From NCBI GenBank assembly GCA_964642275.1, contig CAZXOA010000003.1, forward strand, positions 5,593 to 69,592: a stretch of DNA of 64,000 nucleotides, written 5' to 3'. This document shows, piece by piece, positions 15,843-33,581 of this stretch; position 1 is the first letter of the stretch; every line of letters starts with the position of its first letter. A program made the translations under genes and the position numbers. Origin of the DNA: an uncultured Candidatus Saccharibacteria bacterium. GTDB taxonomy: Bacteria > Patescibacteriota > Saccharimonadia > Saccharimonadales > JACDBH01. The notes beneath the pieces are model-generated. The model saw only the letters and a program-made list of their open reading frames with translations, was not told the DNA's origin and ran no database searches.

Positions 15843-15872
15843 GATATATGCACAGAAGAACATCTCTTACGT

Positions 15873-17090: not shown

Positions 17091-17124
17091 ATGTTTTGTA
17101 ACTAAAGTGGAGGGGAGAAACCTA

Positions 17125-17610: not shown

Positions 17611-17628
17611 AAGATACTTACGAGACAT

Positions 17629-17661
17629 AAAAATCCCCCTGGTCAGACCAGGGGGATTTTT
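17629..17661. terminator. bidirectional terminator shared by hsp20 (+) and the pilin operon (-)
   Basis: AAAAATCCCCCTGGT-CAG-ACCAGGGGGATTTTT. Confidence 0.85.
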
Positions 17662-17728
17662 ATGTAAGAGAATCAAGAGGTTAAGATGTGAACCGGCTAC
17701 CCCGAAACAGCGGGTACCGTATCTACTG

Positions 17729-18142
17729 CTACGTGCTCACATTCTTGGCATTCGCTACAACAAACTTCACAATGAACTGAGCAAGTGCAACAATGACCAA
17801 GCCGATGATAGCATAGATAATAGTGTTTTTGGCACCTGTAACCTTGTTGCTATCACCACCAGAGGTGATGTACTTGAAGCCACCGACAACGATCATGATG
17901 ACAGAAACGATACCAACGAACCAAGAAAGCCAGTTCACGACTTTTTGGACGATGTCGACGACGCCAGACCCATCCGCATCCGCATCTCCACAGTCACCCA
18001 CGCCGGGACCCTGGAGACCTACGCCAGCACAGAGATTATCAGTAATAGACTGTGCGTTTACATTGCCAACTGCAGCAACAGGCAGAGCAACGGCAAAGCC
18101 GAGTGCAAGTACTGCTATTAATGTTTTTATCTTTTTTAACAT
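17729..18142 (-). CDS. T4SS pilin-like protein (VirB2/TrbC-type two-helix hairpin), paralog 1, with its own promoter
   Basis: 137 aa. Signal peptide ending NVNA|QS, Cys-x12-Cys loop, then WLSWFVGIVSVIMIVVGGFKYITSGGDSNKVTGAKNTIIYAIIGLVIVALAQFIV. SD AAGGA. Confidence 0.8.
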   Translation of the reverse strand: MLKKIKTLIAVLALGFAVALPVAAVGNVNAQSITDNLCAGVGLQGPGVGDCGDADADGSGVVDIVQKVVNWLSWFVGIVSVIMIVVGGFKYITSGGDSNKVTGAKNTIIYAIIGLVIVALAQFIVKFVVANAKNVST

Positions 18143-18174
18143 AGTTTTATTATTCCTTATTTAGATCTAGTTTA

Positions 18175-18203
18175 TTTATACCACTGTATTATATCCTGTA
18201 CAA
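18175..18203 (-). promoter_or_regulatory. internal promoter for pilin paralog 1
   Basis: Minus strand has TTGTAC (18203-18198), 17 nt, TATAAA (18180-18175), inside the 77-nt gap after paralog 2. An alternative overlapping pair is TTGCCA/TATAAT. Confidence 0.4.
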
Positions 18204-18219
18204 CCCCACGGCTGGCAAG

Positions 18220-18705
18220 CTAACCGCACGTACCCCAATCCTCACGCGGAACCCTATCGCGACATTCTTGAATATCGGCCGCCGAACGCCCCGGGGCAGC
18301 GGGAGTAACATTCTGTAAAACAAACTGCACCAGCACCTGTGCCAGTGCGGCCACAGCGAGGCCGATTAGGGCGTACATAATGGTACTCTTGGCGCTATTA
18401 ATACCATTACTGTCCCCGTTAGAGGTAATGTATTTAAGGCCGCCGATGATAACCATAATTATGGCAATAACCCCAATAATCCAAGATAGCAGGTTGATCA
18501 CTGTGCGTAACAGCCCCCTAATGGAGCTGCCAGCGCTATCATTGGCGCAGCTCTGGCCAGATGCCGCGCCCAAGCCCTCGCAAGCCGCCTGCTTGGCCGC
18601 ATCAGGCACCTGTGCAGAGGCAGTCGAAGCAATGCCCAGTACAGGCACCGCCAAGCCAAGCAGCAACACAAGGCTGAATAAACTCTTTTGAATCAAGTTT
18701 TTCAT
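18220..18705 (-). CDS. T4SS pilin-like protein, paralog 2 (extra Cys-containing C-terminal tail)
   Basis: 161 aa. Signal peptide ...STASA|QV, Cys-x10-Cys, core LLSWIIGVIAIIMVIIGGLKYITSNGDSNGINSAKSTIMYALIGLAVAALAQ. Tail ...ECRDRVPREDWGTCG. Confidence 0.8.
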   Translation of the reverse strand: MKNLIQKSLFSLVLLLGLAVPVLGIASTASAQVPDAAKQAACEGLGAASGQSCANDSAGSSIRGLLRTVINLLSWIIGVIAIIMVIIGGLKYITSNGDSNGINSAKSTIMYALIGLAVAALAQVLVQFVLQNVTPAAPGRSAADIQECRDRVPREDWGTCG

Positions 18706-18709
18706 ATTT

Positions 18710-19093
18710 TTATAATACTCCTACTAAGAATCTAACAATTACTTGCGATATTGAAAAGACCGCTACACCGATAAGCGCGTAGATTATAGTGTCGCGGGCG
18801 CTTTTTATACTGGCAGGGTCGCCATTGGCGGTAATGTACTTTATTGCCGCAATCATTATCATCAGCACCGACACAAAGCCAACCACCCAGCCAAGCATTC
18901 TGACAACCCTTAGGATGATCCCATCGTTGCCGGATATTGGGTCAGTACCGTCTGTACTGCAGACGGATGCATCATCGGTTACGCCCTCTTGGCAAGCATG
19001 CTCGAACGGGTCACCCGTCCACTGCGCAGAGGCAGGCACAGCAACTGCCAGCGGCGCTATAGATAACATAAGAATTAAAACAAGTCTTTTCAT
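18710..19093 (-). CDS. T4SS pilin-like protein, paralog 3
   Basis: Start taken at MKRLVLILM (ATG 19093), where the track gives 19114. Signal peptide ...VPASA|QW, Cys-x10-Cys, core MLGWVVGFVSVLMIMIAAIKYITANGDPASIKSARDTIIYALIGVAVF. Confidence 0.75.
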   Translation of the reverse strand: MKRLVLILMLSIAPLAVAVPASAQWTGDPFEHACQEGVTDDASVCSTDGTDPISGNDGIILRVVRMLGWVVGFVSVLMIMIAAIKYITANGDPASIKSARDTIIYALIGVAVFSISQVIVRFLVGVL

Positions 19094-19094
19094 A

Positions 19095-19388
19095 TCAAAC
19101 ATTATCCACCACAAAGGCCACTATCATAAAGGCTATCATGCTAATTACCAGTCCAATTGCTGCATAGATGATGGCATTGCGGGCCTTTGAGATATCTTCT
19201 GACTTGCCACGGGAAATCACTATCCTGAACGCCGCAATCGCAATAATAAGCACTGCCACCGCACCGGCAATAGCAAAAACAATTTGCAACCCTGCCTGCA
19301 CCTGTGTCTCGCCAACTCCCTGTTGAGGAACATTCTTAATATCTTCGGGGCGAAGTGTCTGCGCAAAAGCTTGTAATGTATGTTTCAT
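19095..19388 (-). CDS. short pilin-like two-helix protein, paralog 4 (no classical signal peptide)
   Basis: 97 aa. Core IVFAIAGAVAVLIIAIAAFRIVISRGKSEDISKARNAIIYAAIGLVISMIAFMIV aligns by eye with the KYITSxGD...AKxTIIYAxIGL core of paralogs 1-3. Confidence 0.65.
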   Translation of the reverse strand: MKHTLQAFAQTLRPEDIKNVPQQGVGETQVQAGLQIVFAIAGAVAVLIIAIAAFRIVISRGKSEDISKARNAIIYAAIGLVISMIAFMIVAFVVDNV

Positions 19389-19402
19389 AACCTAAGGATA
19401 TT

Positions 19403-19915
19403 CTAACCCGTGAGCCTTCTTGCAACAAAACTTACAATAGCGGCCGATGCGAGAGCAATAATGAGACCTATAAGCGCATTAATAACGGTTTGGCGGGCAG
19501 ATTTTGCATTTTCCGGCTCACCCTGTGACAGGATAAAACGATACCCGCCGTAGATAATATAACCCACTGCAACCAGTGCAGCTATACGAAGCAAAATATC
19601 GACTACCGCAAGAGCAATGTAGCTAACTGTCTTCGTTACATCAGTTTCACCACCTGACTGGGGAAGAAAAACCTCGCACCTGCCGTTCACTGACGCACGA
19701 TCAAGATACTGATACCAAGCGGGTAGCCCCAAAAACGATCCGCCGCCACACGAGTCTAAACAAGTGCCCGTTGTCCCGTCCCAATATCTTCCACCAGCTC
19801 CACACTGCTGGGCTCTGCGCTCAAACGTATCAGCACTCTGAGCCGACACACTCGGTACAGGTAGCAGCAGTGTGAAAAAAATGCTGGCAAGAAGTATCTT
19901 TTGGAAAATTTTCAT
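19403..19915 (-). CDS. T4SS pilin-like protein, paralog 5 (4-Cys N-domain)
   Basis: 170 aa. Signal peptide ...PSVSA|QS, four Cys in the exposed part, core VAVGYIIYGGYRFILSQGEPENAKSARQTVINALIGLIIALASAAIV. Confidence 0.7.
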   Translation of the reverse strand: MKIFQKILLASIFFTLLLPVPSVSAQSADTFERRAQQCGAGGRYWDGTTGTCLDSCGGGSFLGLPAWYQYLDRASVNGRCEVFLPQSGGETDVTKTVSYIALAVVDILLRIAALVAVGYIIYGGYRFILSQGEPENAKSARQTVINALIGLIIALASAAIVSFVARRLTG

Positions 19916-20988
19916 ATTACTCCTCCTGGTACAAGGTAGTTTAGCAATCCATAACCGAAAACTAGCAGAATCAGGGCAATGATGGCATTTCTGATCCGCC
20001 CCCTGGCTGCCGAAACCTTCTGAGGGTCGCTACCGGCACTGGAGTACTGTATGCCGCCCGCGATAATAGCTATGGTAATTACTATACCTGCAAGCACCGC
20101 AAGCACATTAATAGTAAGGGCTATGTAGTTGAGGATCCCGCAGTAGTTTTCACTGCCAGCAGCCTCTCCGCTCGTAGGACTGGTGCCCTGACAGTCGTTC
20201 GTCTGAGGCTGATAGGGTACGCACCTTGCAATATCGCTCTTCCACACCCCGCCGTCTGCCTGGCACTGCTCTGAGGAGGTTGGTCCTGAAGGAGTAGTGT
20301 CCTCTTCCGACCCTGAGCATTCGGATAACCCACCCTCTGGAGTAGGATCACCATTAGGACAGTACTCTTGGCATCCAGCCGGTCCACCAGCTGGCACTGG
20401 TTGCCCGTCAGGACAATAATCCGTGGTGTTATTATCCTGATTATCTGCCTTTTCTCCAAGATCACCTGTGACCCTATCAATGTTTGGATTAGTTGGAGTC
20501 GGACTGGTTCCAAAAAGGTTAGTAAAATATGATTGATTTCCCACTGTAAATGAACTAGCGCTCACGACATAGTCGTCTATAGCAGCACCTGGGTTACCCT
20601 TATAGCCATAGCCCGGTCGAGCACCGTCCACATATATATTCTTTGTGCTCTGTAAGTGCGCCCCATTATTATCGGGGTAGAACATATAATTTGTCCCCGG
20701 TATCGAGCACCAGTAATGCTCAAACTCTCCGAACGTATCGTCTTGTCCTCGCTCTCTAATCGCAAGTATCTCTTCCTTATCTGTAAAACCATACAGATCA
20801 TAGTACGCGTCTATGTGAGTGGAGCAGGGGCCGCCATATTCTACCATCTCATAGTAGTAAGATGACTCGCTCTCAATTATCTCTGCCGAAGCACTTCGCC
20901 AAGATACAAAAGCAAATAAGTTAACGCACATGAGTATGGCGACTATCATGCCGATGAATAGCTTGGTGATTGATTCTCCGTATTTCAT
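19912..20988 (-). CDS. large secreted Cys-rich 'head' fused to a C-terminal pilin-like two-helix domain (fusion A)
   Basis: Start taken at MKYGESITKLF (20988), where the track gives 21033. N-terminal TM/signal, ~250 aa Cys/Pro/Gly-rich region. C-terminus CGILNYIALTINVLAVLAGIVITIAIIAGGIQYSSAGSDPQKVSAARGRIRNAIIALILLVFGYGLL. Confidence 0.75.
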   Translation of the reverse strand: MKYGESITKLFIGMIVAILMCVNLFAFVSWRSASAEIIESESSYYYEMVEYGGPCSTHIDAYYDLYGFTDKEEILAIRERGQDDTFGEFEHYWCSIPGTNYMFYPDNNGAHLQSTKNIYVDGARPGYGYKGNPGAAIDDYVVSASSFTVGNQSYFTNLFGTSPTPTNPNIDRVTGDLGEKADNQDNNTTDYCPDGQPVPAGGPAGCQEYCPNGDPTPEGGLSECSGSEEDTTPSGPTSSEQCQADGGVWKSDIARCVPYQPQTNDCQGTSPTSGEAAGSENYCGILNYIALTINVLAVLAGIVITIAIIAGGIQYSSAGSDPQKVSAARGRIRNAIIALILLVFGYGLLNYLVPGGVI

Positions 20989-20990
20989 TA

Positions 20991-21572
20991 CTAGTCTATG
21001 CTCCGCACTTCTACTACTTGCCCAAGAAGCCATTGTCCGTTCTGAGTCGTGTTGCGTCTCATTTCAAGTACAACGATCACTGGTACTCTGTTGCTTTTTG
21101 TGCAGGTATGTGCAGTTCGGACAGAATCATAATCGTCCCCATTAAATTGCCGGATCTCAGCTTTGTGGCTTGGTTGCTTTACTGTACGGCAACTAGCCCA
21201 ATCGACATTAGTTCCAAAATAACCAGCGGCCATCGCATCAGCCAGCGAACCCTCCCAATCATGCAGCAGACTTGTCATATCTGCTGCTGCACTTAGATCG
21301 TCTTGCCCCAAGAAACTTATTACTCCCTGGGCAGCAGTAACCGCCGGGACAGCATCGTCGGCAGTAACCGCTCCGTCCACCACTATCGAACTAGAAATAG
21401 GCTCTCTTTGAGTGATGGCAAAGAGGGCAACAACAAGTATAACAATAGCGGCAACTGCTGCCACAAATATTACTACCTTACGATACCTGCTCTTGGGCGG
21501 CTGGATATTCGGATTAGGTGTTGTCTGGAGCCATGAGTAGTCAAGTTGTGTTTCCTGCTGTTCTGGGATCAT
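20991..21572 (-). CDS. DYSWLQ-motif single-pass membrane protein A (193 aa)
   Basis: N-terminus ...QLDYSWLQTTP, TM VVIFVAAVAAIVILVVALFAI, ~130-aa exposed domain with 2 Cys. Paralog of 22688-23281. Confidence 0.7.
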   Translation of the reverse strand: MIPEQQETQLDYSWLQTTPNPNIQPPKSRYRKVVIFVAAVAAIVILVVALFAITQREPISSSIVVDGAVTADDAVPAVTAAQGVISFLGQDDLSAAADMTSLLHDWEGSLADAMAAGYFGTNVDWASCRTVKQPSHKAEIRQFNGDDYDSVRTAHTCTKSNRVPVIVVLEMRRNTTQNGQWLLGQVVEVRSID

Positions 21573-21669
21573 AGTTATAAGCCTACCCTAAAGGGCTTGA
21601 ACTGAAAAGTATCGCGTTATAGTTGCAGTGAGTATGCTTGGAGCATAGAAGAGCCAAGCTAATTATATT

Positions 21670-22683
21670 TCACAAAATCCCGCCAGGTACCAGATAGCTC
21701 AGCAATGCATACCCAAAGATAAGCAACAACAGGGCAATAACGGAGTTCCTGATCCGAGATTTGGCAGCTGAAACCTTCTGAGGGTCGCTACCGGCACTAG
21801 AATATTGCATACCAGCAACAATAAGCGAAGCCGTAATAACGATGCCCGCCAAAACCGCAAGAGCATCTATAAAAATAGCTATGTAGTTGAGAATCCCACA
21901 GTGGTTTTCATCACTCTCCCCAAGACCACTTGTAACGCTTGGTCCTTGGCAGTCGTTGGTTGTCTTGGACTGGTAGGCACGACATACACCGTCTGTGGGA
22001 TCATCGGGATTTTCTTCGTTCTGCACCCATTCACGCCCACCTTGTATACACGAGTCTCTCTGTGTGACACTTTCTGATGGAGTATAAGTGGTAGTGCCTC
22101 CTGAACTGCTCGAAGTCGAACCTGCGCTACCCCCTGTTGAGCCAGATGAAGATGAGCTGCCTCCGGGCAACGGCAGAGAACTGCTGACATATCCATGAAA
22201 AGTCTGTCTAGGCGTCATGGTTTCGCAGCCGGTACCCGTGCTAGGACCAGCAGTAACACAACTGGTCCCCCAGTTACAGGTCCTGGTAGTCGGACTCCAA
22301 TAACTATTCCCCTCTACAGCTTGACAGATGTTCTGAGCCTGGCGCAGGTTGTGAGCGTTCCGCGCCATCACCTCGGTTGCATCGCCCGACCCACAATGTA
22401 CATGAAACATTATTGTACTATTCCGGTCTCTCGTCATATAACAATGTCCGCGCGTACCCGAAGTGAGACGCGCATAATTTTCGGTAGGGCAAGTCATACG
22501 CTCAAAATTTCTATCGCCAGCCCTATAGTAGCAGCCCTGCGTTAGCGGAGGTGGCTGGGCAACAGTGTTATTGGGCGGCAAAAATAATAACAGACCCGCA
22601 GTCATGCCATAAGCCAAGGCAATCAGGACTGCAAACCTCCCAACCTTGCGGCCAGGGCGGCTGGCTCTAGAGATAATTGTCAT
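21670..22683 (-). CDS. large secreted Cys-rich 'head' fused to a C-terminal pilin-like domain (fusion B)
   Basis: 337 aa. The head differs from fusion A and includes a Ser/Gly-rich linker. C-terminus CGILNYIAIFIDALAVLAGIVITASLIVAGMQYSSAGSDPQKVSAAKSRIRNSVIALLLLIFGYALL is nearly identical to fusion A. Confidence 0.75.
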   Translation of the reverse strand: MTIISRASRPGRKVGRFAVLIALAYGMTAGLLLFLPPNNTVAQPPPLTQGCYYRAGDRNFERMTCPTENYARLTSGTRGHCYMTRDRNSTIMFHVHCGSGDATEVMARNAHNLRQAQNICQAVEGNSYWSPTTRTCNWGTSCVTAGPSTGTGCETMTPRQTFHGYVSSSLPLPGGSSSSSGSTGGSAGSTSSSSGGTTTYTPSESVTQRDSCIQGGREWVQNEENPDDPTDGVCRAYQSKTTNDCQGPSVTSGLGESDENHCGILNYIAIFIDALAVLAGIVITASLIVAGMQYSSAGSDPQKVSAAKSRIRNSVIALLLLIFGYALLSYLVPGGIL

Positions 22684-22687
22684 ATAC

Positions 22688-23281
22688 CTAATATACCTCT
22701 TTTAGCCCATGATCTTTTACAGTAGCATGAGCAAACCGCCACGTATCCGCACCTGCAATATTTCTGTTCATCTCCATAGTTATATCCAGCTCCCAGCCGT
22801 CTGTCTGTTTGCATGTAAGGTTAATGAGAGTGGTGTCATAGAGAGTCCCTCCGTGCTCGCTTACCCGGGCCGGGTAACTTTCGAGGGCTGAGTGCCTACA
22901 CGTTGCTGGATCCAGCGTATCGCCAAAATAGGTAAAGGCCACCTCCTCAGTAAATCCGCCACCAATTTTATTGTAAGCGCTTACCAAGCCCGATGCCTGC
23001 TGCATATTACCTTCACCTACCAGCTGCAGGAAGTTCTGGGCCGACTGAACCGCCGGCGCGGCTTTTTCAGCCGAAATTTGACCGTCTACGACATACGACA
23101 ACCCTTGGGTGGAGTCATTTCGTCCACCAAACGCCAACAATGCAAAAAGCAGCGCGATAAGCACAGCAGCTGCTATAACAATCAAAAATGCGCCTCCTCG
23201 CTTTGGCGAAGATGGTTGGACCTGGCTAGGCGGCTGCAGCCACGAGTAGTCGGGCGATGGTTGATCCTGATCGGGATTCAT
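22688..23281 (-). CDS. DYSWLQ-motif single-pass membrane protein B (197 aa), first gene of the minus arm
   Basis: N-terminus ...SPDYSWLQPPS, TM AFLIVIAAAVLIALLFALLAF, exposed domain with 2 Cys. TACACT (23294-23289) lies 7 nt before the ATG. Confidence 0.7.
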   Translation of the reverse strand: MNPDQDQPSPDYSWLQPPSQVQPSSPKRGGAFLIVIAAAVLIALLFALLAFGGRNDSTQGLSYVVDGQISAEKAAPAVQSAQNFLQLVGEGNMQQASGLVSAYNKIGGGFTEEVAFTYFGDTLDPATCRHSALESYPARVSEHGGTLYDTTLINLTCKQTDGWELDITMEMNRNIAGADTWRFAHATVKDHGLKEVY

Positions 23282-23353
23282 ATGGTCTAGTGTAGTTCAC
23301 CTTGACTATCTCTCCAAAATCTCTCGGCCTCCTGAGTAAATAAGCCCGTTTTA

Positions 23354-23362
23354 TGGTATATT
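23354..23362 (+). promoter_or_regulatory. extended -10-like element (TGgTATATT) 8 nt before the VirB6-like ATG
   Basis: TGG at 23354-23356 and TATATT at 23357-23362, with ATG at 23371. No SD in between. Confidence 0.35.
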
Positions 23363-23370
23363 TATGGCAA

Positions 23371-26136
23371 ATGAAACGTTTCAAAAAAATAGGGTTGGGA
23401 CTAGTTACTGCACCTATTCTTGTAAAATTTACTGTGCTTGTGGTTGTTTTTGTTGCATCTTTTTTTGTGTTAAGCGCACCGCAACACGTGGATGCACAGG
23501 CATATCAGAGCGGAGAGGATATCAAGTTTAGGGATACCGTATATGCTTATGCTGGTATAGATACTAGAAGCGGACGAGACACCTCTGGCTGGGCATTTTA
23601 CTTACCTGAAAATTTTTCTTGCGGGAACAAGGTTATTGTAGACAATCCTGCTACAGAAGGCCGAGTGTCGCTTCGCGATACGTTCCCATATACAGATGCT
23701 CAAAATCCAATCATTGGTGATTGTTGGGCCGCAAGTATAGACAGCGATCTAGACTGTTATGCAGTTGGTGGTGTTCCAGTAGCTAATGTTGGCTGTGTGA
23801 CTGGCAGTGTGACCGGGGGACCCGGAATCGCTACTGCACTAGAAAATGCTGATACACAAGACGTGTGCGAAAACTCTGCAAATGGGACTTGGACAAATGG
23901 GAGTTGTGACCTTGGAGCAAGCAGAGCAAGCACGAGAGACGATGCTTCGAGCACAGGGGAGGAACTTGCTAACACCTGCGAGAGTAGAAGTGGCGCATGG
24001 GGGTGGCTGCTTTGTTCTGGCATCGATCTTTTAGACGGCATGATTAACTGGGTCGATAATCAGATCCAACGCCTGCTTGAGGTCAATCAGGACAGGTACA
24101 CCAATGACGCGCTCAAACGTGCGTGGGCAACCCTTAGGAACATCTCATACATGATCCTCATCCCCATCATGCTCGTTATGGTTATTGGTACAGCTATAGG
24201 GCTTGAGACATTTAGCGCCTACACCGTACGCAAGGCGCTACCGCGCATGGTAATAGCTATAATATTCATTGCGCTGTCCTGGTATATCTGTGTATTTATG
24301 ATTGGTATGTTTAATGCCATTGGGAGCGGAGTTGTTGGCTTAGTTACCGCTCCCTTTAGAGCAGAGATTGCTGCCAACGAAATCGACCCTGCCTGCGCAG
24401 ATGGCAGCCTCAACCTTACGTGTCTATTCTCTACAGATATCGGAGTGGAAGGAGGGGCCGGAATACTGCGCGGAATTGCCACTACATTTGCTCAGGTTGG
24501 GTTAATTCTTGGCCTTGTCGTGTTCTTGGTATGGCAAGGGGCGATTCTGCTCTTGGGAGCCGTCGCTGCGTTTCTTGTCCTCTTTGCCAGGGAGATGTTT
24601 ATACTTGGGCTCATGTTGATGGCGCCACTTGCCATTCTCGCTTGGATATTCCCGGGTAACGATAAGCTATGGAAAATGTGGTGGAACTCGTTTTCAAAAC
24701 TCCTGATGATGTTTCCGCTCATTATGGGGATTATTGCTGTTGGTAGAATTTTTGCATGGATTATCAATGAAAGCCCAGGCGGTGCGCTAGAGGGCAGTGT
24801 GCTGCATCCAATCATGAAGCTGACCGCCTATCTGTTACCATACGCATTTATACCATTCACCTTTAAAATGGCTGGCGGCGTTTTTGCTAATCTCGCCGGA
24901 ATTGTTAATGACAAAGACAAGGGCCTTATCGACAGGGCCAAAAACCTTCGTGGTGGCCTGGCCAAGAAGGGCCACGAGACCCTTATGGATGGAAAAGGCC
25001 GTTTTGGTTCAGCAGACAGCAGGCTTGGCAACGCCTACAGGCGTAGTGCGAATTTTGGCAGACACGGTAGTTTAAGTCCTTTCGGAAGGGGTAAGAGCCG
25101 CTGGGAAGAATATGAAAAAATGCATCGTGAAAAAGTTGCTGACAAACTGCTTGAGGAGGGCGGCGGTAGAGCATTTAACGATGACGATGCCTCTGCTTTA
25201 CTCATACGAAAGGGGATGGATCGAAAGACTTTTGTTGCCGAGTATTCAAAGATGCTTCGTGAGGGGCGAGATAGTGGGAAGCGTGCAGACCTACAGGGCG
25301 TAAGCGATGCGCATATATCCGAACTAGCTGAGAACGCTCTATCAAGATCTGAACAGGCAGTAGGGGCTAGGGCTGGCAGCGCGACGATGCGTGTTGCTGC
25401 TCAGAAGTTCCGTACTGCTATGACAAATACTGCCTATGATCCTGGCAAGAAGGGTTTGGCAGATCTGCAGAAGGACCTCAAGTCATTGCAAGATGATGGC
25501 TTAATTACAGATGTAGATGCAGCGGGCTGGATGAAGTCAAACAGGGGTCGTGCTGATTTCAGCGCCAATGGATTCTCTGACACGATTAGCTTCGCAGGTG
25601 CGAAAATAAAGGCGGATGGCAGTACATATTCCGCCGCAGACCAATTAGCTGCCGCCTTCAGGGGAGCCGACCCTAGAGAGGTCGTAGGTAGCCACCAGAG
25701 AACCGTTGAAGGGTTCGCCGAACAAGCCGAGGAGAATCTCAAGGTCGCTCTTGCAAGTGGTTCCCAACGAGATATAGATCTTGCACTTGCAGACGTCGCA
25801 AACATATTCGATACAATGTCCAACATATCCACTAAAAAGGCACAGGTCTGGGCCGATAAGGTATACTCGATGCCCACCAGCATCGAACAGGAAGTGGTTA
25901 CCGGTGTAGGTGGAGTCAGGTATGACGTTGAGGACGGCAAAGCAATTCCTATTCCTGGACCAGACATAAGAAGAGAGTCTCGGAAACCTTCTGTAAGAGA
26001 ACTTATGGATCAAGCACGAACTACAAGTGATACTTTCCTCAATCGCAGAAGAGAGTATGGGAGTGCTCGTGATGCCCACTTAGCAGGAAGTGCCGCCGAG
26101 GCGACGAGACCGCCAGACCCCCCTGGAGGACCGTAG
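23371..26136 (+). CDS. VirB6/TrbL-like polytopic membrane protein with N-terminal exposed Cys-rich domain and long C-terminal soluble domain
   Basis: Track ORF is 927 aa from 23353; ATG 23371 gives MKRFKKIGLGL... with a signal-like segment ending VDA|QA. Central ~330 aa holds about 7 hydrophobic helices (e.g. ILIPIMLVMVIGTAIGL, MVIAIIFIALSWYICVFMIGMF, LLLGAVAAFLVLFAREMFILGLMLMAPLAILAWIF). Position directly upstream of PrgI/VirB3-like and VirB4 genes. Confidence 0.7.
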   Translation: MKRFKKIGLGLVTAPILVKFTVLVVVFVASFFVLSAPQHVDAQAYQSGEDIKFRDTVYAYAGIDTRSGRDTSGWAFYLPENFSCGNKVIVDNPATEGRVSLRDTFPYTDAQNPIIGDCWAASIDSDLDCYAVGGVPVANVGCVTGSVTGGPGIATALENADTQDVCENSANGTWTNGSCDLGASRASTRDDASSTGEELANTCESRSGAWGWLLCSGIDLLDGMINWVDNQIQRLLEVNQDRYTNDALKRAWATLRNISYMILIPIMLVMVIGTAIGLETFSAYTVRKALPRMVIAIIFIALSWYICVFMIGMFNAIGSGVVGLVTAPFRAEIAANEIDPACADGSLNLTCLFSTDIGVEGGAGILRGIATTFAQVGLILGLVVFLVWQGAILLLGAVAAFLVLFAREMFILGLMLMAPLAILAWIFPGNDKLWKMWWNSFSKLLMMFPLIMGIIAVGRIFAWIINESPGGALEGSVLHPIMKLTAYLLPYAFIPFTFKMAGGVFANLAGIVNDKDKGLIDRAKNLRGGLAKKGHETLMDGKGRFGSADSRLGNAYRRSANFGRHGSLSPFGRGKSRWEEYEKMHREKVADKLLEEGGGRAFNDDDASALLIRKGMDRKTFVAEYSKMLREGRDSGKRADLQGVSDAHISELAENALSRSEQAVGARAGSATMRVAAQKFRTAMTNTAYDPGKKGLADLQKDLKSLQDDGLITDVDAAGWMKSNRGRADFSANGFSDTISFAGAKIKADGSTYSAADQLAAAFRGADPREVVGSHQRTVEGFAEQAEENLKVALASGSQRDIDLALADVANIFDTMSNISTKKAQVWADKVYSMPTSIEQEVVTGVGGVRYDVEDGKAIPIPGPDIRRESRKPSVRELMDQARTTSDTFLNRRREYGSARDAHLAGSAAEATRPPDPPGGP

Positions 26137-26139: not shown

Positions 26140-27264
26140 ATGGCGACATATAAAGTACTCCAAGACATCGAGGCAGAGGACAAGCTGTTTGGGCCGTTTA
26201 CGCTCAAGCAATTTATCTTTGGCGGTGTTACGGCAGTTATTATTTTTATTCTCTTTCAGATACTCGTGTCTCCGCTGCCGATATTCTTGAAGGCTCCTTT
26301 GGTCTTTGTGTTTATCCCGCCGCTTAGTCTCTTTGGATTCATGGCGGCACCGATAAGTCGCGACCAGCCAAATGATATTTGGCTGCTGGCGCGGCTGCGG
26401 TTTTTATTCAAGCCCCGGACTCGTATCTGGAGCCAGGACGGCATCAGCGAACTGGTTACCATAACAGCCCCCAAGCAAGACACCCATGTATATACAAACA
26501 GTATCTCCCAAACCGAGGTAAAGAGCCGCTTGCAAGCACTTGCCAACACAGTGGACACGCGGGGCTGGGCCACAAAGAACGTCAACACGAATTTGTTTAC
26601 TCAGCCAGACTACATATCCAGTGCTCAGTCAGACCGCCTGATAGATGCCGCGGAATTGCCGCAAGATACAGCTATCGTTAATGTCACTGCAGCCGACGAC
26701 GTTATGGATCCGCTCAACAATTCCACTGCGCAGCATCTGGATCAGCTGATCCAAGCTTCGACAGCCGCCCACAAGCAGCAGGCAATTGCTCAAATGACAA
26801 CACCCGCACCGCAGCCAGCAACTCCCGCAGCGGGCCAGGACTACTACTTTATGAATCAGCCGCAACCGCCGTCCGAGCCGCTGCCAACAAATTACGCGAC
26901 GTTTGATGCAAGTCAGGTTGTACAGCCCGGCGCAAACGACGTGGTTGCGTCTGCCCAATCCACTGCCGAAGAAGATGTGCTAGCACATAAATTACGTGAA
27001 GAGAAGCAACAAGCCGTGTCTCATATCAAGGATCGCATGAAGGTTGTCACACCACTGCACGACCAAGACGGCAACCTAGTCTCACCAACCCCTTTGCCCC
27101 AAGCTATACAGGCACGGCCAGCTCCTGTTCAGCAAAGTCCGAATAACCCCGCTCTGCAGCAACTCTCGCAGAACAACGACCTCAACATCTCGACCATTGC
27201 AAGACAAGCCAAGCAAGCGCAAGACAGCGGTGATGATAGTGAAGTGGTAATCTCTCTGCATTAG
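26140..27264 (+). CDS. PrgI/VirB3-like small-membrane-domain protein with long Gln/Pro/Ala-rich C-terminal extension
   Basis: N-terminus MATYKVLQDIEAEDKLFGPFTLKQFIFGGVTAVIIFILFQ... plus a second TM, as in PrgI-family (VirB3-like) proteins. About 250 extra low-complexity residues. Confidence 0.65.
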   Translation: MATYKVLQDIEAEDKLFGPFTLKQFIFGGVTAVIIFILFQILVSPLPIFLKAPLVFVFIPPLSLFGFMAAPISRDQPNDIWLLARLRFLFKPRTRIWSQDGISELVTITAPKQDTHVYTNSISQTEVKSRLQALANTVDTRGWATKNVNTNLFTQPDYISSAQSDRLIDAAELPQDTAIVNVTAADDVMDPLNNSTAQHLDQLIQASTAAHKQQAIAQMTTPAPQPATPAAGQDYYFMNQPQPPSEPLPTNYATFDASQVVQPGANDVVASAQSTAEEDVLAHKLREEKQQAVSHIKDRMKVVTPLHDQDGNLVSPTPLPQAIQARPAPVQQSPNNPALQQLSQNNDLNISTIARQAKQAQDSGDDSEVVISLH

Positions 27265-28421: not shown

Positions 28422-30341
28422 ATGGCTTTTGGCAAAAAAAATGATGCCGCTGCAAGCGACCCTGTTGCATTGGCCCAGGCTCAGAGGCTCCGTGAAGAGC
28501 AAGAGGTACAGGCAGCATTCCAAAAAGGCATTACCGCGCTACGCGATTTTATTGCCCCAAGTTCGATCGAATTCCAGAGCGGATTTTTCCGCATCGGCAC
28601 ACGTTATGCGCGAACTTTTTATGTCTACGGCTATCCAAGACAGATCTTCACTGGCTGGCTCAGCGGCATGGTTAATCTTGATGAAGTCATCGACCTGAGT
28701 ATGTTTATCTATCCCGTGGAGAGTCAAGTGGTGCTCGAAAACCTCCGCAAAAAGGTCACCCAGCTCGAAGCTGGTCTGCAAATCGATGCCGAGAAGGGCC
28801 GTGTCCGCGACCCGGGCAAGCAGGCGGCAATCCAGGACGCTGAAGAAATGCGCGACAAACTGCAGGTAGGCGAAGAGCGATTTTTCCGTCTTGGCCTTTA
28901 CTTTACCCTGTACGCTGGCAGCCAGGAAGAGCTTGAGTTTGTCACCCACAAGGTTGAGTCTCTGCTTGGCCAGCAGCTCGTCTACAGCAAGCCCGCCAGC
29001 GCTCAGCAAGAGCAAGGACTCAACAGCAGCGTGCCTCAGTTTACCGACCAATTGCAGATCAGGCGCAACATGAACACCGGAGCCCTGAGCACAACTTTTC
29101 CGTTTACATCGGCAGATCTCAGTCAGGAAAACGGCATTATGTATGGTATTAATATGCACAACTCAGGGCTGGTTATCTTTGACCGTTTCTCTCTCGAAAA
29201 CGGTAACTCAGTGGTGTTTGCCAAGTCTGGTGCTGGTAAAAGTTTTGCTGTGAAGCTCGAAGCATTGCGATCGCTTATGTTCGGCACCGAGATATTTATT
29301 ATCGACCCGGAGAACGAATACCAGCGCATGGCCGAAGCGGTTGGTGGAGCCTATGTACGGCTCAGTCTCAACTCTGTCACCCGCATCAATCCGTTTGACC
29401 TCCCTCAGGTTGTCGACAGCGAGGAGGCTGACAATGCACTGCGGAGCAACCTCATCACCCTTCACGGGCTCCTACGCCTCATGATGGGCGGAGCACAGGC
29501 GCAGATGGCAGGACAGCAAGCCGGTGCAATCATGCCAGCCCTGAGCCCGGTCGAGGAGGCTGATCTCGATGCAGCGCTTATCGAGACGTACGCTCGGGCA
29601 GGGATTACCAACGATCCGCTCACACACCAGTCGCCAGCTCCGACTATTGCCGACCTGTACGACGTACTCCTGCACATGGGTAATACCGGGCCGCAGCTTG
29701 CCCAGCGGCTGCGCAAGTACACCAGCGGTACTTTTGCGGGTATTTTCAGCCAGCCGAGCAATATCGATATCAACAATCCGTTGGTAGTATTCAATGTCCG
29801 TGACCTCGAGGACGAACTTCGTCCAGTAGCAATGTATATTGTCCTGAACTATATCTGGAACAAAACCAAGGCTGACCAAAAGCGCCGTATTCTAGTGGTC
29901 GACGAAGCCTGGCAGCTTATGAAGTATGAAGATTCGGCCAGCTTCTTATTCTCATTAGCCAAGCGAGCGCGCAAGTACAACCTGGGTATCACTACTATTA
30001 CGCAAGATGTTGAAGATTTTATGGGCTCACGTATGGGTCGTGCAATTGTTGCCAACGCCAGTATGCAGCTGCTGCTCAAGCAGTCTACATCTGCGGTTGA
30101 CGTCTTGTCGGAGGTGTTTAAGTTGACGAGCGAAGAGAAGAAACGGCTTAGTCAATTCCCGGTTGGGCAGGGACTGTTCTTTGCCGGGCAAAATCATGTT
30201 CATATTCAGATTTTGGCCAGCCCAACCGAACAAGGGCTTATAACCACCAACCCATCACAAGTACAGGCCATGGAGGCTGGCGAAATAAGCCAGGGGCAAG
30301 GTACAATAGACCTTGATAACAGATTAGCTCCAGGGATGTAG
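28422..30341 (+). CDS. virB4: VirB4-family T4SS ATPase
   Basis: 639 aa. Walker A VVFAKSGAGKSF, Walker B RILVVDEAWQLM. N-domain ...FIAPSSIEFQSGFFRIGTRYARTFYVYGYPRQIFTGWL typical of Gram-positive-type VirB4 (PrgJ/TrsE-like). Confidence 0.9.
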   Translation: MAFGKKNDAAASDPVALAQAQRLREEQEVQAAFQKGITALRDFIAPSSIEFQSGFFRIGTRYARTFYVYGYPRQIFTGWLSGMVNLDEVIDLSMFIYPVESQVVLENLRKKVTQLEAGLQIDAEKGRVRDPGKQAAIQDAEEMRDKLQVGEERFFRLGLYFTLYAGSQEELEFVTHKVESLLGQQLVYSKPASAQQEQGLNSSVPQFTDQLQIRRNMNTGALSTTFPFTSADLSQENGIMYGINMHNSGLVIFDRFSLENGNSVVFAKSGAGKSFAVKLEALRSLMFGTEIFIIDPENEYQRMAEAVGGAYVRLSLNSVTRINPFDLPQVVDSEEADNALRSNLITLHGLLRLMMGGAQAQMAGQQAGAIMPALSPVEEADLDAALIETYARAGITNDPLTHQSPAPTIADLYDVLLHMGNTGPQLAQRLRKYTSGTFAGIFSQPSNIDINNPLVVFNVRDLEDELRPVAMYIVLNYIWNKTKADQKRRILVVDEAWQLMKYEDSASFLFSLAKRARKYNLGITTITQDVEDFMGSRMGRAIVANASMQLLLKQSTSAVDVLSEVFKLTSEEKKRLSQFPVGQGLFFAGQNHVHIQILASPTEQGLITTNPSQVQAMEAGEISQGQGTIDLDNRLAPGM

Positions 30342-30344: not shown

Positions 30345-33300
30345 ATGGCAGTATACGACCCCGAAGATCAGGAAAAACAGGCTTTATCCCCATCAGAACT
30401 ATCGAGTAAGGAGGCTGAGCTCGGTAAATCTTATGATGAAAACTCTCGCCATTATCAAAGTGATATGCGCGGCGACAAGCAACGTGATTTGCGTGAACAA
30501 AGGCAAGCATACGACCAAGAAGAAAAAGAAAATCTTGCGAAGAGGCTACGAGATACTTTTCAGGAAGCTCTTGACCAAGATAAAGCCGACGGGAAAGATT
30601 TGGGGTACCTCTATAACCCAAACGATAAGGGCAAAGGAATCCGCGCCACAATCTCTGGCCTAAGTGGAAGGAAGAAGGGTCTCATAGTCGGAGCGGGGGG
30701 CGGTGTTATCGGTGTAGTACTTACCTTGAGTGGTATTTTCGGGTTTTTAAATTCGTTTAAATTAGATCATCTCATTACTAACCTCGACGCTACAGCATTT
30801 GCAAGAGTCAACTCTATGTTTGATCGGAGGAGCAGCAAATGGGTCGCGGCATATGTCAATATCCGCCTTGACGAGCTCGCTGGAGGTCTTGACCGGCTAC
30901 CTGACGGGTCTGTCAACTTTGCCTCAGGCAGAGTTGATACCAACAGACCCTTTACAGACTGGTATCGTACACTCAGATCAAACCGCTTCGAACAAAGAAT
31001 GTTCAATGACCGAGGGATCCACTTTTCGAGTAATGCCACGCCCGATGGGAGAGCACGGTTCGTACGTGTTCAGGTCGGACAATCGATAATAGACAGCCCC
31101 CATTTTGACTCTTCGCTCAATGCGGCTGGAAGACGGCAGCTTATTACCCAAAACCTAGACAATATGACAATGGATATATTTGAAGGTCCCGGAGCCAGTA
31201 AACAGATGCGCAGGCAATTAAGGAGCGACCTTAAGAACGATACGCGTTTCTATCAGGTACTGAAGAGGCGGCATATACGCAAGGATATTCAGAACAAGAT
31301 AGGCGTGAGGGACTGGAGGTTCTTTGAAGTAACCCGTGAAAAGGCGGCCGACAAAAGAAGAGAGTTCAAGAACAAGATGCTGACCAGAATTATTCCAGAA
31401 AGTACAAAAAGCGGCACGTTCCTCTTATGTGTCTTTGGGCTTGGCGCCTGCCAATCTACGGCTGATCCGGCAAGCCCGGAAAGCCGGATGGGAGGTGGAG
31501 CACGAGGCTCACCCCTGGATGAGGGTGACGCTGTTTCAAGAACGGATACTGACGGAAACCAGATAATTGATGAAAGCCGCCGGGGATCAGCCCAGCCGGA
31601 TGCCGATAAGGCAATCCTCGAGGCAAGCCAAGAAGCCGCTGAAGCAGCGGGTGATATTGTAGATGACTTGCCAGGGAGAAAATTCCGTAGCGCATTCATG
31701 AAGAAGATACTCTCTAAAGTGGTGGGGACTATAAATGTCATAAATGTCGTTGACACTATGGACATGCTCCTGCGCATCCACAAGAATATTTTAGGAGGCA
31801 AACTTAGCCACATGGTGATTGCGGCCAGAGCCGCACAAGCGCTCGCAGCATACACCACCTACGGCATTATGAGAGATCAGCTAAAAACCGGGGATGTAAC
31901 ACCGGAGGAACTCGGTTACGCTATGGAGGGCCTAAATGGTATAGCCAATAGTGAAGGTTATGATTTCTTCTTTAAGAGTAGCGGGCAATCAACAGTATCT
32001 GCCATGGCTGACCGCAAGACCTTTTGTAAGGATGATTATGTAAAACAGCCTAAGGATTATTACTTTTTGTGTGATGACACAAAGATTGGTGGGTCATCCA
32101 GAGCCAGCAGCCTGGAGGAAACCTACCAAAGCAACCCCGCCTTTGCTGCGTTTCGCCTCGCCATGGAGGGATACCGAAGGGCCAGGGACAGTTTTATAGG
32201 AAAAATAGTTGGCGGGTTTGCCAACTGGCTTATGGAGAGGTTTAGTGACGTTTTTTCGTTTGTCTTATCGCCTATCCTGAGTCTTTTTGAGGATGAGATG
32301 GAAGCGCTCGTTGCATGGCTCGGAGATAAGATTACCGTGGCACTTGGGGCAGGACCAATACTAACCGGCGACCCTGATGTCGATCACCCAGGGCTAACTA
32401 TGAATATGATCGCACAGGGGGCTGCATACGCTGGCGAGCTCAATGCAAGAATGTCTGGAGCTGCGATAGAAAATGAAGATACAAGAATCTACACAAACAA
32501 AATAACCGCGCAATACCTTGCGGACGAAGAAGCAAGCAAGAGCCTCTACGAACGCTACTTTGCTCTGGACAATCCAAAATCTTTTGCAGCAACTACATTC
32601 TTTGGTTTCATAAACACCTCCTTTAGTAATGTTTTCACAAACGTTGGCCAGGTGTTTAGTAACGGGCTTGCGGTACTCTTTTCGCCAAGGGCCTTAGCAG
32701 CCACAGACTCTTTCGGGGCCGCTGAGTTTGCAGGTCTCGAGACCTATGCTTTCCCGCCCGTTTGTATAGAGAACGATCCACTTACAGTGATGCCGCTTGA
32801 GATGACGAATGCAGATGATCTGGGGTTGATACCCGTTGACGACATCGACTGGAGCCTGTTAGGCAATGAAGAGGCCTTTTGGGAGAAGGTGTATGAGAGC
32901 CTTGACGAAGATAACCAGGATATCGCCCTTAAGGTTTACAATTGCGAACTGCTAGACAAGAGGATTAGGGGAGGTCTGGGCTACACCTCTGGGTACACAG
33001 ATGACGGAGGGCTGGAGGATGGCGACGGAGGAACCGCAAAGGGCGGAGCAAGCGGCCCAATAACTTTGGTTGGTGACTTAGCATTTCCATTAGCTGTACG
33101 AAAATCAAATATCGGGGGTGGTATGTTCACAGGGGGCGACACACAAATCTCAGGTCACCCGTACACGGCTTACGATATTATGGCGCCGAAGGGTACTACA
33201 GTAGTATCCATGACCAATGGGCGGGTCGTACGCGTTTCCCGTGATTGCACTGGTGACACAGTGGCCGCTATAACCGTCAACATCCCAGAGCAAGGGATAT

Positions 33301-33578: not shown

Positions 33579-33581
33579 GCT

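What the first reader, a model, noticed from the sequence alone, without database searches (positions are those of the whole stretch)
17729..19915. Array of five short pilin paralogs sharing an AxA|Q signal site, a Cys-x10-12-Cys loop and a KYITSxGD / AKxTIxYAxIGL core
Four of the five back-to-back genes (137, 161, 127 and 170 aa) have a signal peptide ending (S/N)A|Q: NVNA|QS, TASA|QV, PASA|QW, SVSA|QS. In three of them (137, 161 and 127 aa) this is followed by a short exposed segment with a Cys pair 10-12 residues apart (the 170-aa protein instead has four Cys), and in all four by helix 1 - polar loop - helix 2. The loop motif is (G)GxKYITSxGDxxxxxxAKxTIxYAxIGL. The 97-aa member keeps the hairpin (RIVISRGKSEDISKARNAIIYAAIGL) but has no hydrophobic signal peptide. 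The same A|Q cleavage context recurs in the VirB6-like protein (VDA|QA), the SGNH-M23 enzyme (VSA|QL) and fusion B (TVA|QP). Five to seven pilin-type subunits in a single T4SS locus is unusual. It suggests major and minor subunits or antigenic/functional diversification.
Basis: seen in the sequence. Interest (0 to 1): 0.75.

Follow-up and report, generated by a model that had tools for sequence, protein, structure and literature searches.

The report
Saccharibacterial type IV secretion pilin array
These five small genes, plus two longer neighbours, are the VirB2-like pilin gene array that sits in the type IV secretion locus of Saccharibacteria; the array is already published and is essential in a cultivated relative, so the finding is real but not new.

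Summary
Five back-to-back minus-strand genes (137, 161, 127, 97 and 170 aa) all score above Pfam's threshold for PF18895 T4SS_pilin. So do the C-termini of the next two longer proteins (373 and 337 aa). Four of the five have a signal peptide ending A|Q. Three have one Cys pair and one has four Cys. The 97-aa protein has no signal peptide.

The window is an uncultured Saccharibacterium, and the locus lies next to dnaA. It has the same gene order as SEML1_0013-0021 of Southlakia epibionticum, where six PF18895 genes are each essential by Tn-seq (Wang 2023). Such arrays were described in 2020 and catalogued in 2025 (441 arrays of 2-11 genes), so "unusual" does not apply within this phylum.

- In 70 related genomes the six genes keep a fixed order with position-specific orthologs.
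- The first five genes abut, while the last one (137-aa type) follows a ~74-nt spacer with a conserved extended -10 promoter.
- The first gene carries a hypervariable outer domain, and in this window it is duplicated.

I therefore favour a fixed major-plus-minor subunit set over interchangeable variants. No filament has been shown.

The parts
17729..18142 (-). 137-aa pilin, array position 5 (last gene). Candidate major subunit. Signal peptide ends VNA|Q, Cys38-x12-Cys51, TM hairpin at about residues 68-94 and 103-132.
   Evidence: PF18895 57.4 bits, TrbC 27.3 bits. The hairpin of its orthologs is the most conserved, 64% mean identity. Extra copies in other genomes are of this type. The AF2 model shows two long helices, 58-93 and 98-135.
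18143..18219 (-). 77-nt spacer with a candidate internal promoter: -35 TTGTAC (18203-18198), 17-nt spacer, TG (18183-18182), -10 TATAAA (18180-18175), and RBS AAGGA (18157-18153).
   Evidence: Sequence read. In 70 related loci this junction has a median gap of 73.5 nt, while the other junctions have -1 to 9 nt. TGnTAWAA is present in 55 of 70 spacers, a median 34 nt before the ATG, against 3.4 expected from shuffles. Transcription start not shown.
17625..17665 (-). Stem-loop followed by a U-run between the 137-aa gene and the convergent hsp20 gene. Probable bidirectional terminator that ends the array.
   Evidence: RNA fold -30.8 kcal/mol, z = -8.0, 0 of 200 shuffles as stable.
18220..18705 (-). 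161-aa pilin, position 4. Signal peptide ends ASA|Q, Cys42-x10-Cys53. Has a 30-aa C-terminal tail with a second Cys pair.
   Evidence: PF18895 46.2 bits, TrbC 26.6 bits. Two Cys in the N-terminal segment in 64 of 70 orthologs; a C-tail Cys pair in 11 of 70.
18710..19093 (-). 127-aa pilin, position 3. Signal peptide ends ASA|Q, Cys34-x10-Cys45.
   Evidence: PF18895 32.6 bits. The nearest neighbour in other genomes is at the same position in 65 of 70.
19095..19388 (-). 97-aa pilin-domain protein, position 2. No signal peptide, no Cys, hairpin only.
   Evidence: PF18895 36.4 bits. Orthologs have a median of 98 aa, 50 of 70 have no Cys, and only 9 of 70 have any signal-like hydrophobic stretch.
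19403..19915 (-). 170-aa pilin, position 1. Signal peptide ends VSA|Q, 67-aa outer segment with four Cys.
   Evidence: PF18895 38.6 bits. The nearest neighbour is at the same position in 70 of 70; two Cys spaced 22-39 residues apart in 60 of 70 orthologs.
19912..21033 (-). 373-aa protein, position 0, copy A. The true start is probably Met16 at 20988, giving 358 aa. Signal peptide, roughly 250-aa acidic Cys-rich outer domain, C-terminal pilin hairpin.
   Evidence: PF18895 29.8 bits at residues 310-367. 68% identical to the 337-aa protein over the last 104 aa only. The longest ORF overlaps the upstream gene by 43 nt.
20991..21572 (-). 193-aa single-TM protein that precedes fusion copy A. Paralog of the 197-aa protein.
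   Evidence: 31% identity, E 2e-23. No Pfam family. A homolog was found in only 1 of 80 related loci.
21670..22683 (-). 337-aa protein, position 0, copy B. Signal peptide ends TVA|Q, roughly 225-aa Cys-rich outer domain unrelated to copy A, C-terminal pilin hairpin.
   Evidence: PF18895 27.5 bits.
22688..23281 (-). 197-aa single-TM protein that precedes fusion copy B.
23353..26136 (+). 927-aa membrane protein transcribed divergently from the array. VirB6-like by position only.
   Evidence: No Pfam or NCBIfam hit. A homolog lies divergently upstream of the array in 57 related loci. The gene at the same position in S. epibionticum, SEML1_0013, is annotated by structure as TrbL/VirB6.
26140..27264 (+). 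374-aa protein with a PrgI (VirB3-like) N-terminal domain.
   Evidence: PF12666 36.5 bits.
28422..30341 (+). 639-aa VirB4-type ATPase.
   Evidence: PF19044 TraG P-loop 92.1 bits, AAA_10 48.3 bits.
30345..35540 (+). Two M23 peptidase-domain proteins (1077 and 652 aa). Probable cell-wall hydrolases of the system.
   Evidence: PF01551 43.9 and 85.8 bits.

Best explanation
What it is. This is the VirB2-like pilin array of the chromosomal, origin-proximal, monoderm-type T4SS of a Saccharibacterium. It is orthologous to SEML1_0014-0019 of Southlakia epibionticum.

Proposed steps.
1. Each protein except the 97-aa one is inserted by Sec and cut by signal peptidase I, here after A and before Q.
2. This leaves a two-helix membrane hairpin. 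The acidic N-terminal segment, probably disulfide-looped, and the C-terminus face outward. The short basic loop faces the cytoplasm.
3. The subunits are then drawn from the membrane at the VirB6-like/VirB3-like/VirB4 platform. They are built into a pilus, or a short wall-spanning pseudopilus, that contacts the host bacterium.

Proposed roles. The set is fixed and non-redundant.
- The 137-aa type has its own conserved promoter and is the bulk (major) subunit.
- The translationally coupled 170-, 97-, 127- and 161-aa types are low-copy minor subunits for initiation, base or tip.
- The position-0 protein presents a hypervariable outer domain on a pilin anchor. This is a likely host-specificity element, and it is duplicated in this window with two unrelated domains.

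Shown versus inferred. Shown: family membership, synteny, position-specific orthology, gene spacing, the promoter motif and domain variability. Inferred: cleavage, disulfides, topology, filament formation and the major/minor/tip roles.
For: - Family: PF18895 is above threshold for all seven proteins, and TrbC/VirB2 gives E 4e-06.
- All seven show sub-threshold similarity to the Mycoplasma ICE pilin-like family NF045849.
- T4SS neighbours are present.
- dnaA, dnaN, recF and yidC lie 2-7 kb beyond the locus.
- All 80 related loci come from Saccharibacteria or CPR genome bins.
- Gene order is VirB6-like, then the array, then hsp20, comF and tRNA-Ser. This matches SEML1_0013-0022, where the six PF18895 genes are each scored GD/ES/ES by Tn-seq.
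- In 70 of 70 complete arrays the order is the same. Nearest neighbours in other genomes sit at the same position in 100, 100, 96, 93, 64 and 99% of cases.
- Junction gaps are -1, 0, -1 and 9 nt, then 73.5 nt before the last gene.
- That spacer carries TGnTAWAA in 55 of 70 loci, against 3.4 expected.
- The position-5 hairpin is the most conserved (64%), and extra copies are of that type.
- Position-0 outer domains are alignable in only 2% of pairs, although they are the longest.
- All members share the hydrophobic-segment layout and charge pattern.
- The AF2 model shows a helical hairpin.
Against: - No filament has been seen for any CPR T4SS.
- Foldseek against the PDB gave nothing significant. 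The best E was about 1, and an archaeal conjugative pilin ranked 32nd.
- There was no PDB sequence match.
- Profile-profile comparison with seven genuine VirB2 proteins was weak (E 0.002, probability 12%), although the register was correct.
- The AF2 model is only moderate (pLDDT 70.6) and is unreliable over the Cys loop.
- The promoter is a conserved motif, not a mapped transcription start.
- Position-4 and position-5 types are not cleanly separated: 24 of 70 position-4 proteins have a position-5 protein as nearest neighbour.
- The related loci were chosen by similarity to the 137-aa protein, so they sample only part of the phylum.
Confidence: 0.55

Rival explanations
1. The paralogs are interchangeable major pilins. 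They are kept for antigenic or host-range variation, as proposed for the VirB2 paralog arrays of Bartonella and Anaplasma and suggested for CPR by the 2025 survey.
For: - Identity between paralogs within an array is low: 24-38% to the 137-aa protein here and 25% on average in the survey.
- The exposed N-terminal segments vary.
- 17 of 70 related loci carry one or two extra 137-aa-type copies.
Against: - The same six types occur in the same order in 70 of 70 genomes, with position-specific orthologs.
- Each of the six genes is essential in S. epibionticum, so they do not substitute for each other.
- Tight translational coupling of the first five genes argues for co-production, not choice.
- One member always lacks a signal peptide.
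Confidence: 0.12
2. The proteins never form an external filament. They are membrane-embedded parts of the translocation channel. VirB2 is needed for substrate transfer even in systems or mutants that make no pilus.
For: - Monoderm T4SSs are not known to make pili.
- The related Mycoplasma ICE family is only called 'pilin-like'.
- No filament has been reported for CPR T4SS.
- The 97-aa member has no exported segment at all.
Against: - The position-0 members carry 225-250-aa Cys-rich exported domains, and the others carry conserved exported Cys loops. These features are hard to explain for purely intramembrane parts.
- A separately promoted, highly conserved subunit suggests a need for bulk amounts.
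Confidence: 0.25
3. The array encodes Sec-exported effector or toxin subunits that the T4SS releases, like the pertussis toxin S1-S5 genes next to ptl. This was the original 2020 reading of the TM7x array.
For: The genes are small, carry signal peptides and flank T4SS apparatus genes.
Against: - Every member ends in a two-TM hairpin that matches a pilin family.
- No toxin or enzyme domain was found.
- The later literature re-read the genes as pilins.
Confidence: 0.03

Closest known systems
Essential T4SS pilin array of Southlakia epibionticum ML1, SEML1_0014-0019 (Wang et al. 2023, PMC10633639; reviewed in PMC12857230)
   Same: - Same phylum.
- Six consecutive PF18895 genes with a matching size pattern: 132, 185, 103, 126, 127 and 138 aa there; long fusion, 170, 97, 127, 161 and 137 aa here.
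- Divergent VirB6-like gene upstream, and hsp20, comFC and tRNA-Ser downstream.
- Close to the replication origin.
   Different: - This window has a second position-0 gene and two extra ~195-aa single-TM genes. None of the 70 related loci has a second position-0 gene.
- Its position-0 proteins are much longer (337 and 373 aa against 132 aa).
- Orthology to the ML1 proteins is inferred from synteny, sizes and Pfam. No direct alignment was made.
'Sec-secreted array' of Nanosynbacter lyticus TM7x (McLean et al. 2020, PMC7427843), and the 441 CPR VirB2 arrays of Quinonero-Coronel et al. 2025 (PMC12102498)
   Same: An array of 4-6 (2-11 in the survey) small signal-peptide proteins beside VirB4/VirB6. 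It is conserved across Saccharibacteria and detected with PF18895/PF04956.
   Different: Those papers do not mention fixed positional orthology, the internal promoter, the conserved Cys pairs or the signal-less member. A term search of the 2025 paper found none of these.
VirB2/TrbC pilins of Gram-negative T4SS (Agrobacterium T-pilus), together with the VirB5 tip protein
   Same: - Long signal peptide, then a two-helix hydrophobic hairpin with a short loop.
- Seven genuine VirB2 proteins have an invariant A|Q at the cleavage site, as do four proteins here.
- The Pfam TrbC model scores E 4e-06.
   Different: - The scores are just below Pfam's TrbC cut-off (27.3 against 27.9 bits).
- hhalign against VirB2 is weak.
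- The cell is a monoderm with no outer-membrane complex.
- There are six to seven paralogs instead of one pilin plus VirB5.
- The loop is longer and an exported Cys loop is present.
- No VirB5 homolog was noticed.
Mbov_0395 family pilin-like conjugal transfer protein of Mycoplasma ICEs (NCBIfam NF045849)
   Same: All seven proteins align over the whole 80-position model, with E from 3e-08 to 6e-03. It is a monoderm T4SS, consistent with the MPF-FATA ancestry reported for CPR T4SS.
   Different: All scores (16-33 bits) are below the 40-bit cut-off. The Mycoplasma proteins belong to mobile elements. Whether they occur singly or in arrays was not examined.
Major plus minor pilin sets of type IV pili and type II secretion pseudopili (analogy only)
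   Same: One abundant subunit plus a fixed set of several low-copy paralogs encoded together. One of them carries a larger outer domain.
   Different: The fold and processing are unrelated. There is no class III prepilin leader (G|F...E5) at any N-terminus here. Assembly would use a VirB4 ATPase, not a PilB/GspE ATPase.

Membership tests
Pfam PF18895 T4SS_pilin | Score at or above the curated gathering threshold (26.6 bits) | tested here: met
   Scores of 57.4, 46.2, 32.6, 36.4 and 38.6 bits for the five proteins, and 29.8 and 27.5 bits for the two long fusions.
Pfam PF18895 T4SS_pilin | Two hydrophobic helices joined by a short polar loop at the C-terminus | tested here: met
   Hydropathy segments and loops for all seven proteins. 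AF2 helices 58-93 and 98-135 in the 137-aa protein.
Pfam PF18895 T4SS_pilin | Encoded in a T4SS gene cluster with a VirB4-type ATPase | tested here: met
   PrgI/VirB3-like, VirB4-like and M23 peptidase genes lie at 26140-35540.
TrbC/VirB2 pilin (Pfam PF04956) | Score at or above the curated threshold (27.9 bits) | tested here: inconclusive
   Scores of 27.3, 26.6, 20.3 and 17.5 bits (E 4e-06 to 5e-03), and no hit for the 97-aa protein. Most close orthologs carry a precomputed PF04956 hit.
TrbC/VirB2 pilin (Pfam PF04956) | Profile-profile similarity to genuine VirB2 proteins | tested here: inconclusive
   hhalign of A2 against seven plasmid VirB2 proteins gave E 0.0023, probability 12%, and aligned helix 1, loop and helix 2 in register. 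A 491-sequence profile gave P 0.007.
TrbC/VirB2 pilin (Pfam PF04956) | Similarity of fold to solved conjugative pilins | tested here: inconclusive
   Foldseek against the PDB gave no hit with E below 1. The A. pernix conjugative pilin 8dfu ranked 32nd with TM 0.62. Helical hairpins are not discriminating.
TrbC/VirB2 pilin (Pfam PF04956) | Polymerises into an extracellular pilus; the mature N-terminus is produced by signal peptidase and, in some systems, cyclised | not testable with these tools
   Only the A|Q context shared with VirB2 can be read from sequence.
Saccharibacterial six-gene T4SS pilin array (SEML1_0014-0019 type) | Six consecutive PF18895 genes between a divergent VirB6-like gene and hsp20/comFC/tRNA-Ser | tested here: met
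   Window gene order. The same order is seen in related loci and in the S. epibionticum gene table.
Saccharibacterial six-gene T4SS pilin array (SEML1_0014-0019 type) | Each gene is required for epibiotic growth | not testable with these tools
   Known only for S. epibionticum Tn-seq.
Pertussis-toxin-like secreted subunit array | Toxin or binding-subunit domains in the small proteins | tested here: not met
   Only pilin-type families match in Pfam and NCBIfam.
Type IV pilus (T4P) pilins | Class III leader cut by prepilin peptidase (G|F/M...E5), followed by a single N-terminal hydrophobic helix | tested here: not met
   The N-termini are ordinary Sec signal peptides ending AxA. The hydrophobic hairpin is at the C-terminus.

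The most novel reading that the evidence does not exclude
The Saccharibacterial T4SS builds a heteromeric pilus from a fixed kit that is conserved across at least the sampled part of the phylum. The kit has three parts:
- one separately promoted major subunit;
- four minor subunits in invariant order, one of them never signal-processed;
- a pilin-anchored, hypervariable outer domain that sets host specificity.

This genome would then carry two alternative specificity cassettes, each with its own ~195-aa partner protein, and could engage two kinds of host surface. No VirB2-type pilus with such a minor-subunit set is known.
Probability: 0.3. Interest if true: 0.6.

Novelty: already known. Interest (0 to 1): 0.27.

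Why it matters
The T4SS and its pilin array are essential for the epibiotic growth of the one Saccharibacterium tested genetically. What the system moves, and whether a monoderm cell really makes a VirB2-type pilus, remain open questions.

This window adds no new kind of system. The comparison made here does sharpen the question in three ways:
- The six paralogs look like a fixed, co-produced set and not like variants.
- The 137-aa type is the obvious candidate for the filament body.
- The position-0 outer domain is the obvious candidate for host recognition.

Each of these points gives a concrete target for proteomics, cryo-EM and domain-swap experiments in the cultivable strains.

Tried and rejected
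- Foldseek of the AF2 model against the PDB gave only generic helical hairpins and nothing below E = 1.
- A profile search of PDB sequences gave one chance hit to cytochrome bd subunit II.
- tblastn of the 137-aa protein against 72,556 plasmids gave no match.
- R388 could not be fetched by accession. I used seven alphaproteobacterial VirB2 genes instead.
- hhalign against that narrow VirB2 set was weak.
- The generic promoter scan did not flag the spacer promoter and missed the terminator hairpin. Both were then found by cross-genome comparison and by folding.
- My first crude cleavage-site predictor placed sites unreliably. I replaced it with a simple [AGS]Q count.
- The TM7x transcriptome paper and the Gracilibacteria metaproteome paper gave no usable abundance data for individual pilins.
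- I considered and rejected a type IV pilus pilin reading (no class III leader) and a VirB3 reading for the 97-aa protein. The 97-aa protein passes PF18895, and a PrgI/VirB3-like gene lies elsewhere in the locus.
- I did not run a second structure prediction, further large protein searches or a codon-usage test for expression. None could change the verdict.
Full report

Yes. Five consecutive minus-strand ORFs occupy 17729-19915: 137, 161, 127, 97 and 170 aa. The 127-aa length counts from the ATG at 19093. The 127-aa start lies 1 nt after the stop of the 97-aa gene.

Four of the five have a classical signal peptide ending NVNA|QS, TASA|QV, PASA|QW or SVSA|QS. The Cys pairs are C38/C51, C42/C53 and C34/C45. 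The 170-aa protein has four Cys before helix 1.

The 97-aa ORF starts 14 nt after the stop of the preceding gene, so it cannot have a signal peptide.

Alignment A1 shows the shared core, for example GGFKYITSGGDSNKVTGAKNTIIYAIIGL. Identity to the 137-aa protein is 24-38%.

**2. What family?**

All five proteins exceed the curated threshold of Pfam PF18895 (T4SS_pilin), with E from 1.5e-15 to 8.8e-08. So do the C-termini of the next two proteins, of 373 and 337 aa. Four of the five also hit TrbC/VirB2 (PF04956) at E 4e-06 to 5e-03, which is 0.6 to about 10 bits under its cut-off.

All seven show sub-threshold similarity to NCBIfam NF045849, the Mbov_0395 pilin-like conjugal transfer protein of Mycoplasma ICEs. 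A profile I built from them finds exactly these seven in the window.

Every member has the same layout:
- a signal peptide, absent in the 97-aa protein;
- an acidic exported segment;
- a hydrophobic helix;
- a short loop flanked by K/R;
- a second hydrophobic helix and a very short tail.

AlphaFold2 on a 28-sequence alignment gives a moderate model (pLDDT 70.6) with helices 58-93 and 98-135. The Cys-loop segment is unreliable.

Direct links to solved pilins failed or were weak:
- No PDB sequence hit.
- No Foldseek hit below E = 1.
- hhalign against seven genuine VirB2 proteins gave E 0.002 and probability 12%, with the correct helix-loop-helix register.

Membership of PF18895 is therefore met. 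Membership of TrbC/VirB2 proper is borderline.

**3. Context and organism**

Downstream on the plus strand lie several T4SS genes:
- a PrgI/VirB3-like gene at 26140-27264;
- a VirB4-type ATPase at 28422-30341;
- two M23 peptidases at 30345-35540.

recF, dnaN, dnaA and yidC follow at 36.9-42.9 kb, so the cluster sits beside the chromosomal origin. All 80 related loci recovered from one-genome-per-species contigs are Saccharibacteria or CPR genome bins. The best is 57% identical to the 137-aa protein.

**4. Already published**

- McLean et al. 2020 described a conserved array of 4-6 small signal-peptide proteins beside VirB4/VirB6 across Saccharibacteria. They read it as pertussis-toxin-like.
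- Wang et al. [quoted passage not shown]
- Their gene table lists SEML1_0013 (VirB6-like, divergent). It then lists SEML1_0014-0019, six PF18895 genes of 132, 185, 103, 126, 127 and 138 aa, each scored GD/ES/ES. Hsp20, a K02242 (ComFC) gene and tRNA-Ser follow.
- The window has the same order: 927-aa gene, array, hsp20 at 17107-17610, comF-like gene at 16296-17090, and tRNA-Ser genes at 15750-15962.
- Quinonero-Coronel et al. 2025 catalogued 441 VirB2 arrays of 2-11 genes in 383 CPR assemblies. Arrays were especially frequent in Saccharibacteria, mean identity was 25%, and the clusters lay near dnaA. They suggested host-range versatility.

The finding is therefore correct but known. 'Five to seven is unusual' holds only against classical T4SSs.

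**5. What the comparison adds**

In 70 related loci with complete arrays, 53 have six pilin-domain genes, 15 have seven and 2 have eight. The order is always the same:
- position 0: a long fusion;
- position 1: 170-aa type;
- position 2: 97-aa type;
- position 3: 127-aa type;
- position 4: 161-aa type;
- position 5: 137-aa type;
- sometimes followed by extra 137-aa-type copies.

A protein's nearest neighbour in other genomes lies at the same position in 100, 100, 96, 93, 64 and 99% of cases for positions 0 to 5. Hairpin identity within a position is 45, 49, 42, 40, 51 and 64%.

The Cys pair is conserved at four positions:

| Position | Orthologs with two Cys | Typical spacing |
|---|---|---|
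| 5 | 66 of 70 | about 12 |
| 4 | 64 of 70 | about 11 |
| 3 | 60 of 70 | about 10 |
| 1 | 60 of 70 | 22-39 |

The position-2 type usually has no Cys (50 of 70) and no signal-like stretch (61 of 70).

A|Q is not conserved. Only 14-24 of about 69 orthologs per position have it. Seven genuine VirB2 proteins do have an invariant A|Q.

Gene junctions are -1, 0, -1 and 9 nt. A 73.5-nt spacer (interquartile range 64-87) then precedes the position-5 gene. The window spacer is 77 nt.

That spacer contains an extended -10 motif, TGnTAWAA, in 55 of 70 loci. The motif lies a median 34 nt before the ATG, against 3.4 loci expected by shuffling. A -35 match of 4-5 out of 6 occurs in 41 of those 55, and a strong AAGAAAGG ribosome-binding site follows. 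In the window the elements are TTGTAC-17 nt-TATAAA, with TG at 18183-18182.

A stable hairpin with a U-run (-30.8 kcal/mol, z = -8) ends the array.

The position-0 outer domains are the longest exported segments, yet they are alignable in only 2% of genome pairs. The figures are 61% for position 1 and 57% for position 5.

The window has two position-0 proteins. They are 68% identical over the last 104 aa, and their outer domains are unrelated. Each is preceded by a ~195-aa single-TM paralog; the two paralogs are 31% identical. None of the 70 loci has a second position-0 gene. Only one locus has a homolog of the ~195-aa protein.

**6. Most likely mechanism**

The subunits are inserted by Sec and trimmed by signal peptidase I. 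They wait in the membrane as hairpins with both ends outside, as VirB2 does. They are then assembled at the VirB6-like/VirB3-like/VirB4 platform into a pilus, or a short wall-spanning pseudopilus, that engages the host bacterium.

Three observations point to one bulk subunit (137-aa type) plus a fixed set of low-copy partners:
- the fixed positional orthology;
- the individual essentiality of each gene in S. epibionticum;
- the tight coupling of five genes, with a separate conserved promoter for the sixth.

The hypervariable position-0 domain would be the host-recognition element.

The steps from cleavage onward are inferences. No filament has been shown for any CPR T4SS. A channel-only role for these proteins remains a serious rival. 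Interchangeable antigenic variants and toxin subunits fit the data poorly.

**7. Verdict**

Interest is low to moderate. It rests mainly on the unresolved biology of the system and on the incremental regulatory and evolutionary details found here.

Noticed in passing
window 19912-23281 (minus strand): A two-gene cassette is duplicated: a ~195-aa single-TM protein plus a long pilin-anchored fusion. The two fusions share 68% identity only in the last 104 aa. Their 225-250-aa Cys-rich outer domains are unrelated to each other and to those of 70 related genomes, none of which has the duplication.
   Followed up: partly
window 18143-18219, and the equivalent spacer in loci L002-L081: A conserved ~74-nt spacer carries an extended -10 motif (TGnTAWAA) and a strong ribosome-binding site just before the last pilin gene. 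It occurs in 55 of 70 Saccharibacterial loci. I did not find this mentioned in the papers read.
   Followed up: yes
window 18220-18312 (C-terminal 30 aa of the 161-aa protein): This pilin has a C-terminal extension with a second Cys pair (ECRDRVPREDWGTCG). 11 of 70 orthologs at this position also have two Cys after the hairpin.
   Followed up: partly
window 20988-21033: The longest ORF of the 373-aa fusion overlaps the upstream gene by 43 nt. Met16 (ATG at 20988) lies 2 nt after that gene's stop and begins a normal signal peptide, so the protein is probably 358 aa.
   Followed up: partly
loci L082-L088 (alignment A3): Seven genuine VirB2/TrbC proteins from alphaproteobacterial plasmids have an invariant Ala-Gln at the signal-peptide cleavage site. 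This is the same context as in four pilins and three other exported proteins of this window.
   Followed up: partly
window 36941-42880: recF, dnaN, dnaA and yidC lie just beyond the T4SS cluster, so the cluster is next to the chromosomal origin. This matches what the 2025 survey reported for some CPR genomes.
   Followed up: partly
window 14440-15962: A cluster of three tRNA-Ser genes and one tRNA-Arg gene. A 104-aa GIY-YIG domain ORF (15326-15640) and a 210-aa membrane protein lie between them.
   Followed up: no
Here that protein gave only a weak, sub-threshold DUF459 hit (E 0.0055) besides M23.
   Followed up: no
window 54000-64000: G+C drops from about 0.49 to 0.42-0.44 and GC skew turns strongly positive over the last 10 kb. 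The genes there were not examined.
   Followed up: no
window 17625-17665: A perfect 19-bp hairpin flanked by A-runs and U-runs lies between the convergent pilin and hsp20 genes. It is probably a bidirectional terminator. The generic terminator scan missed it.
   Followed up: yes
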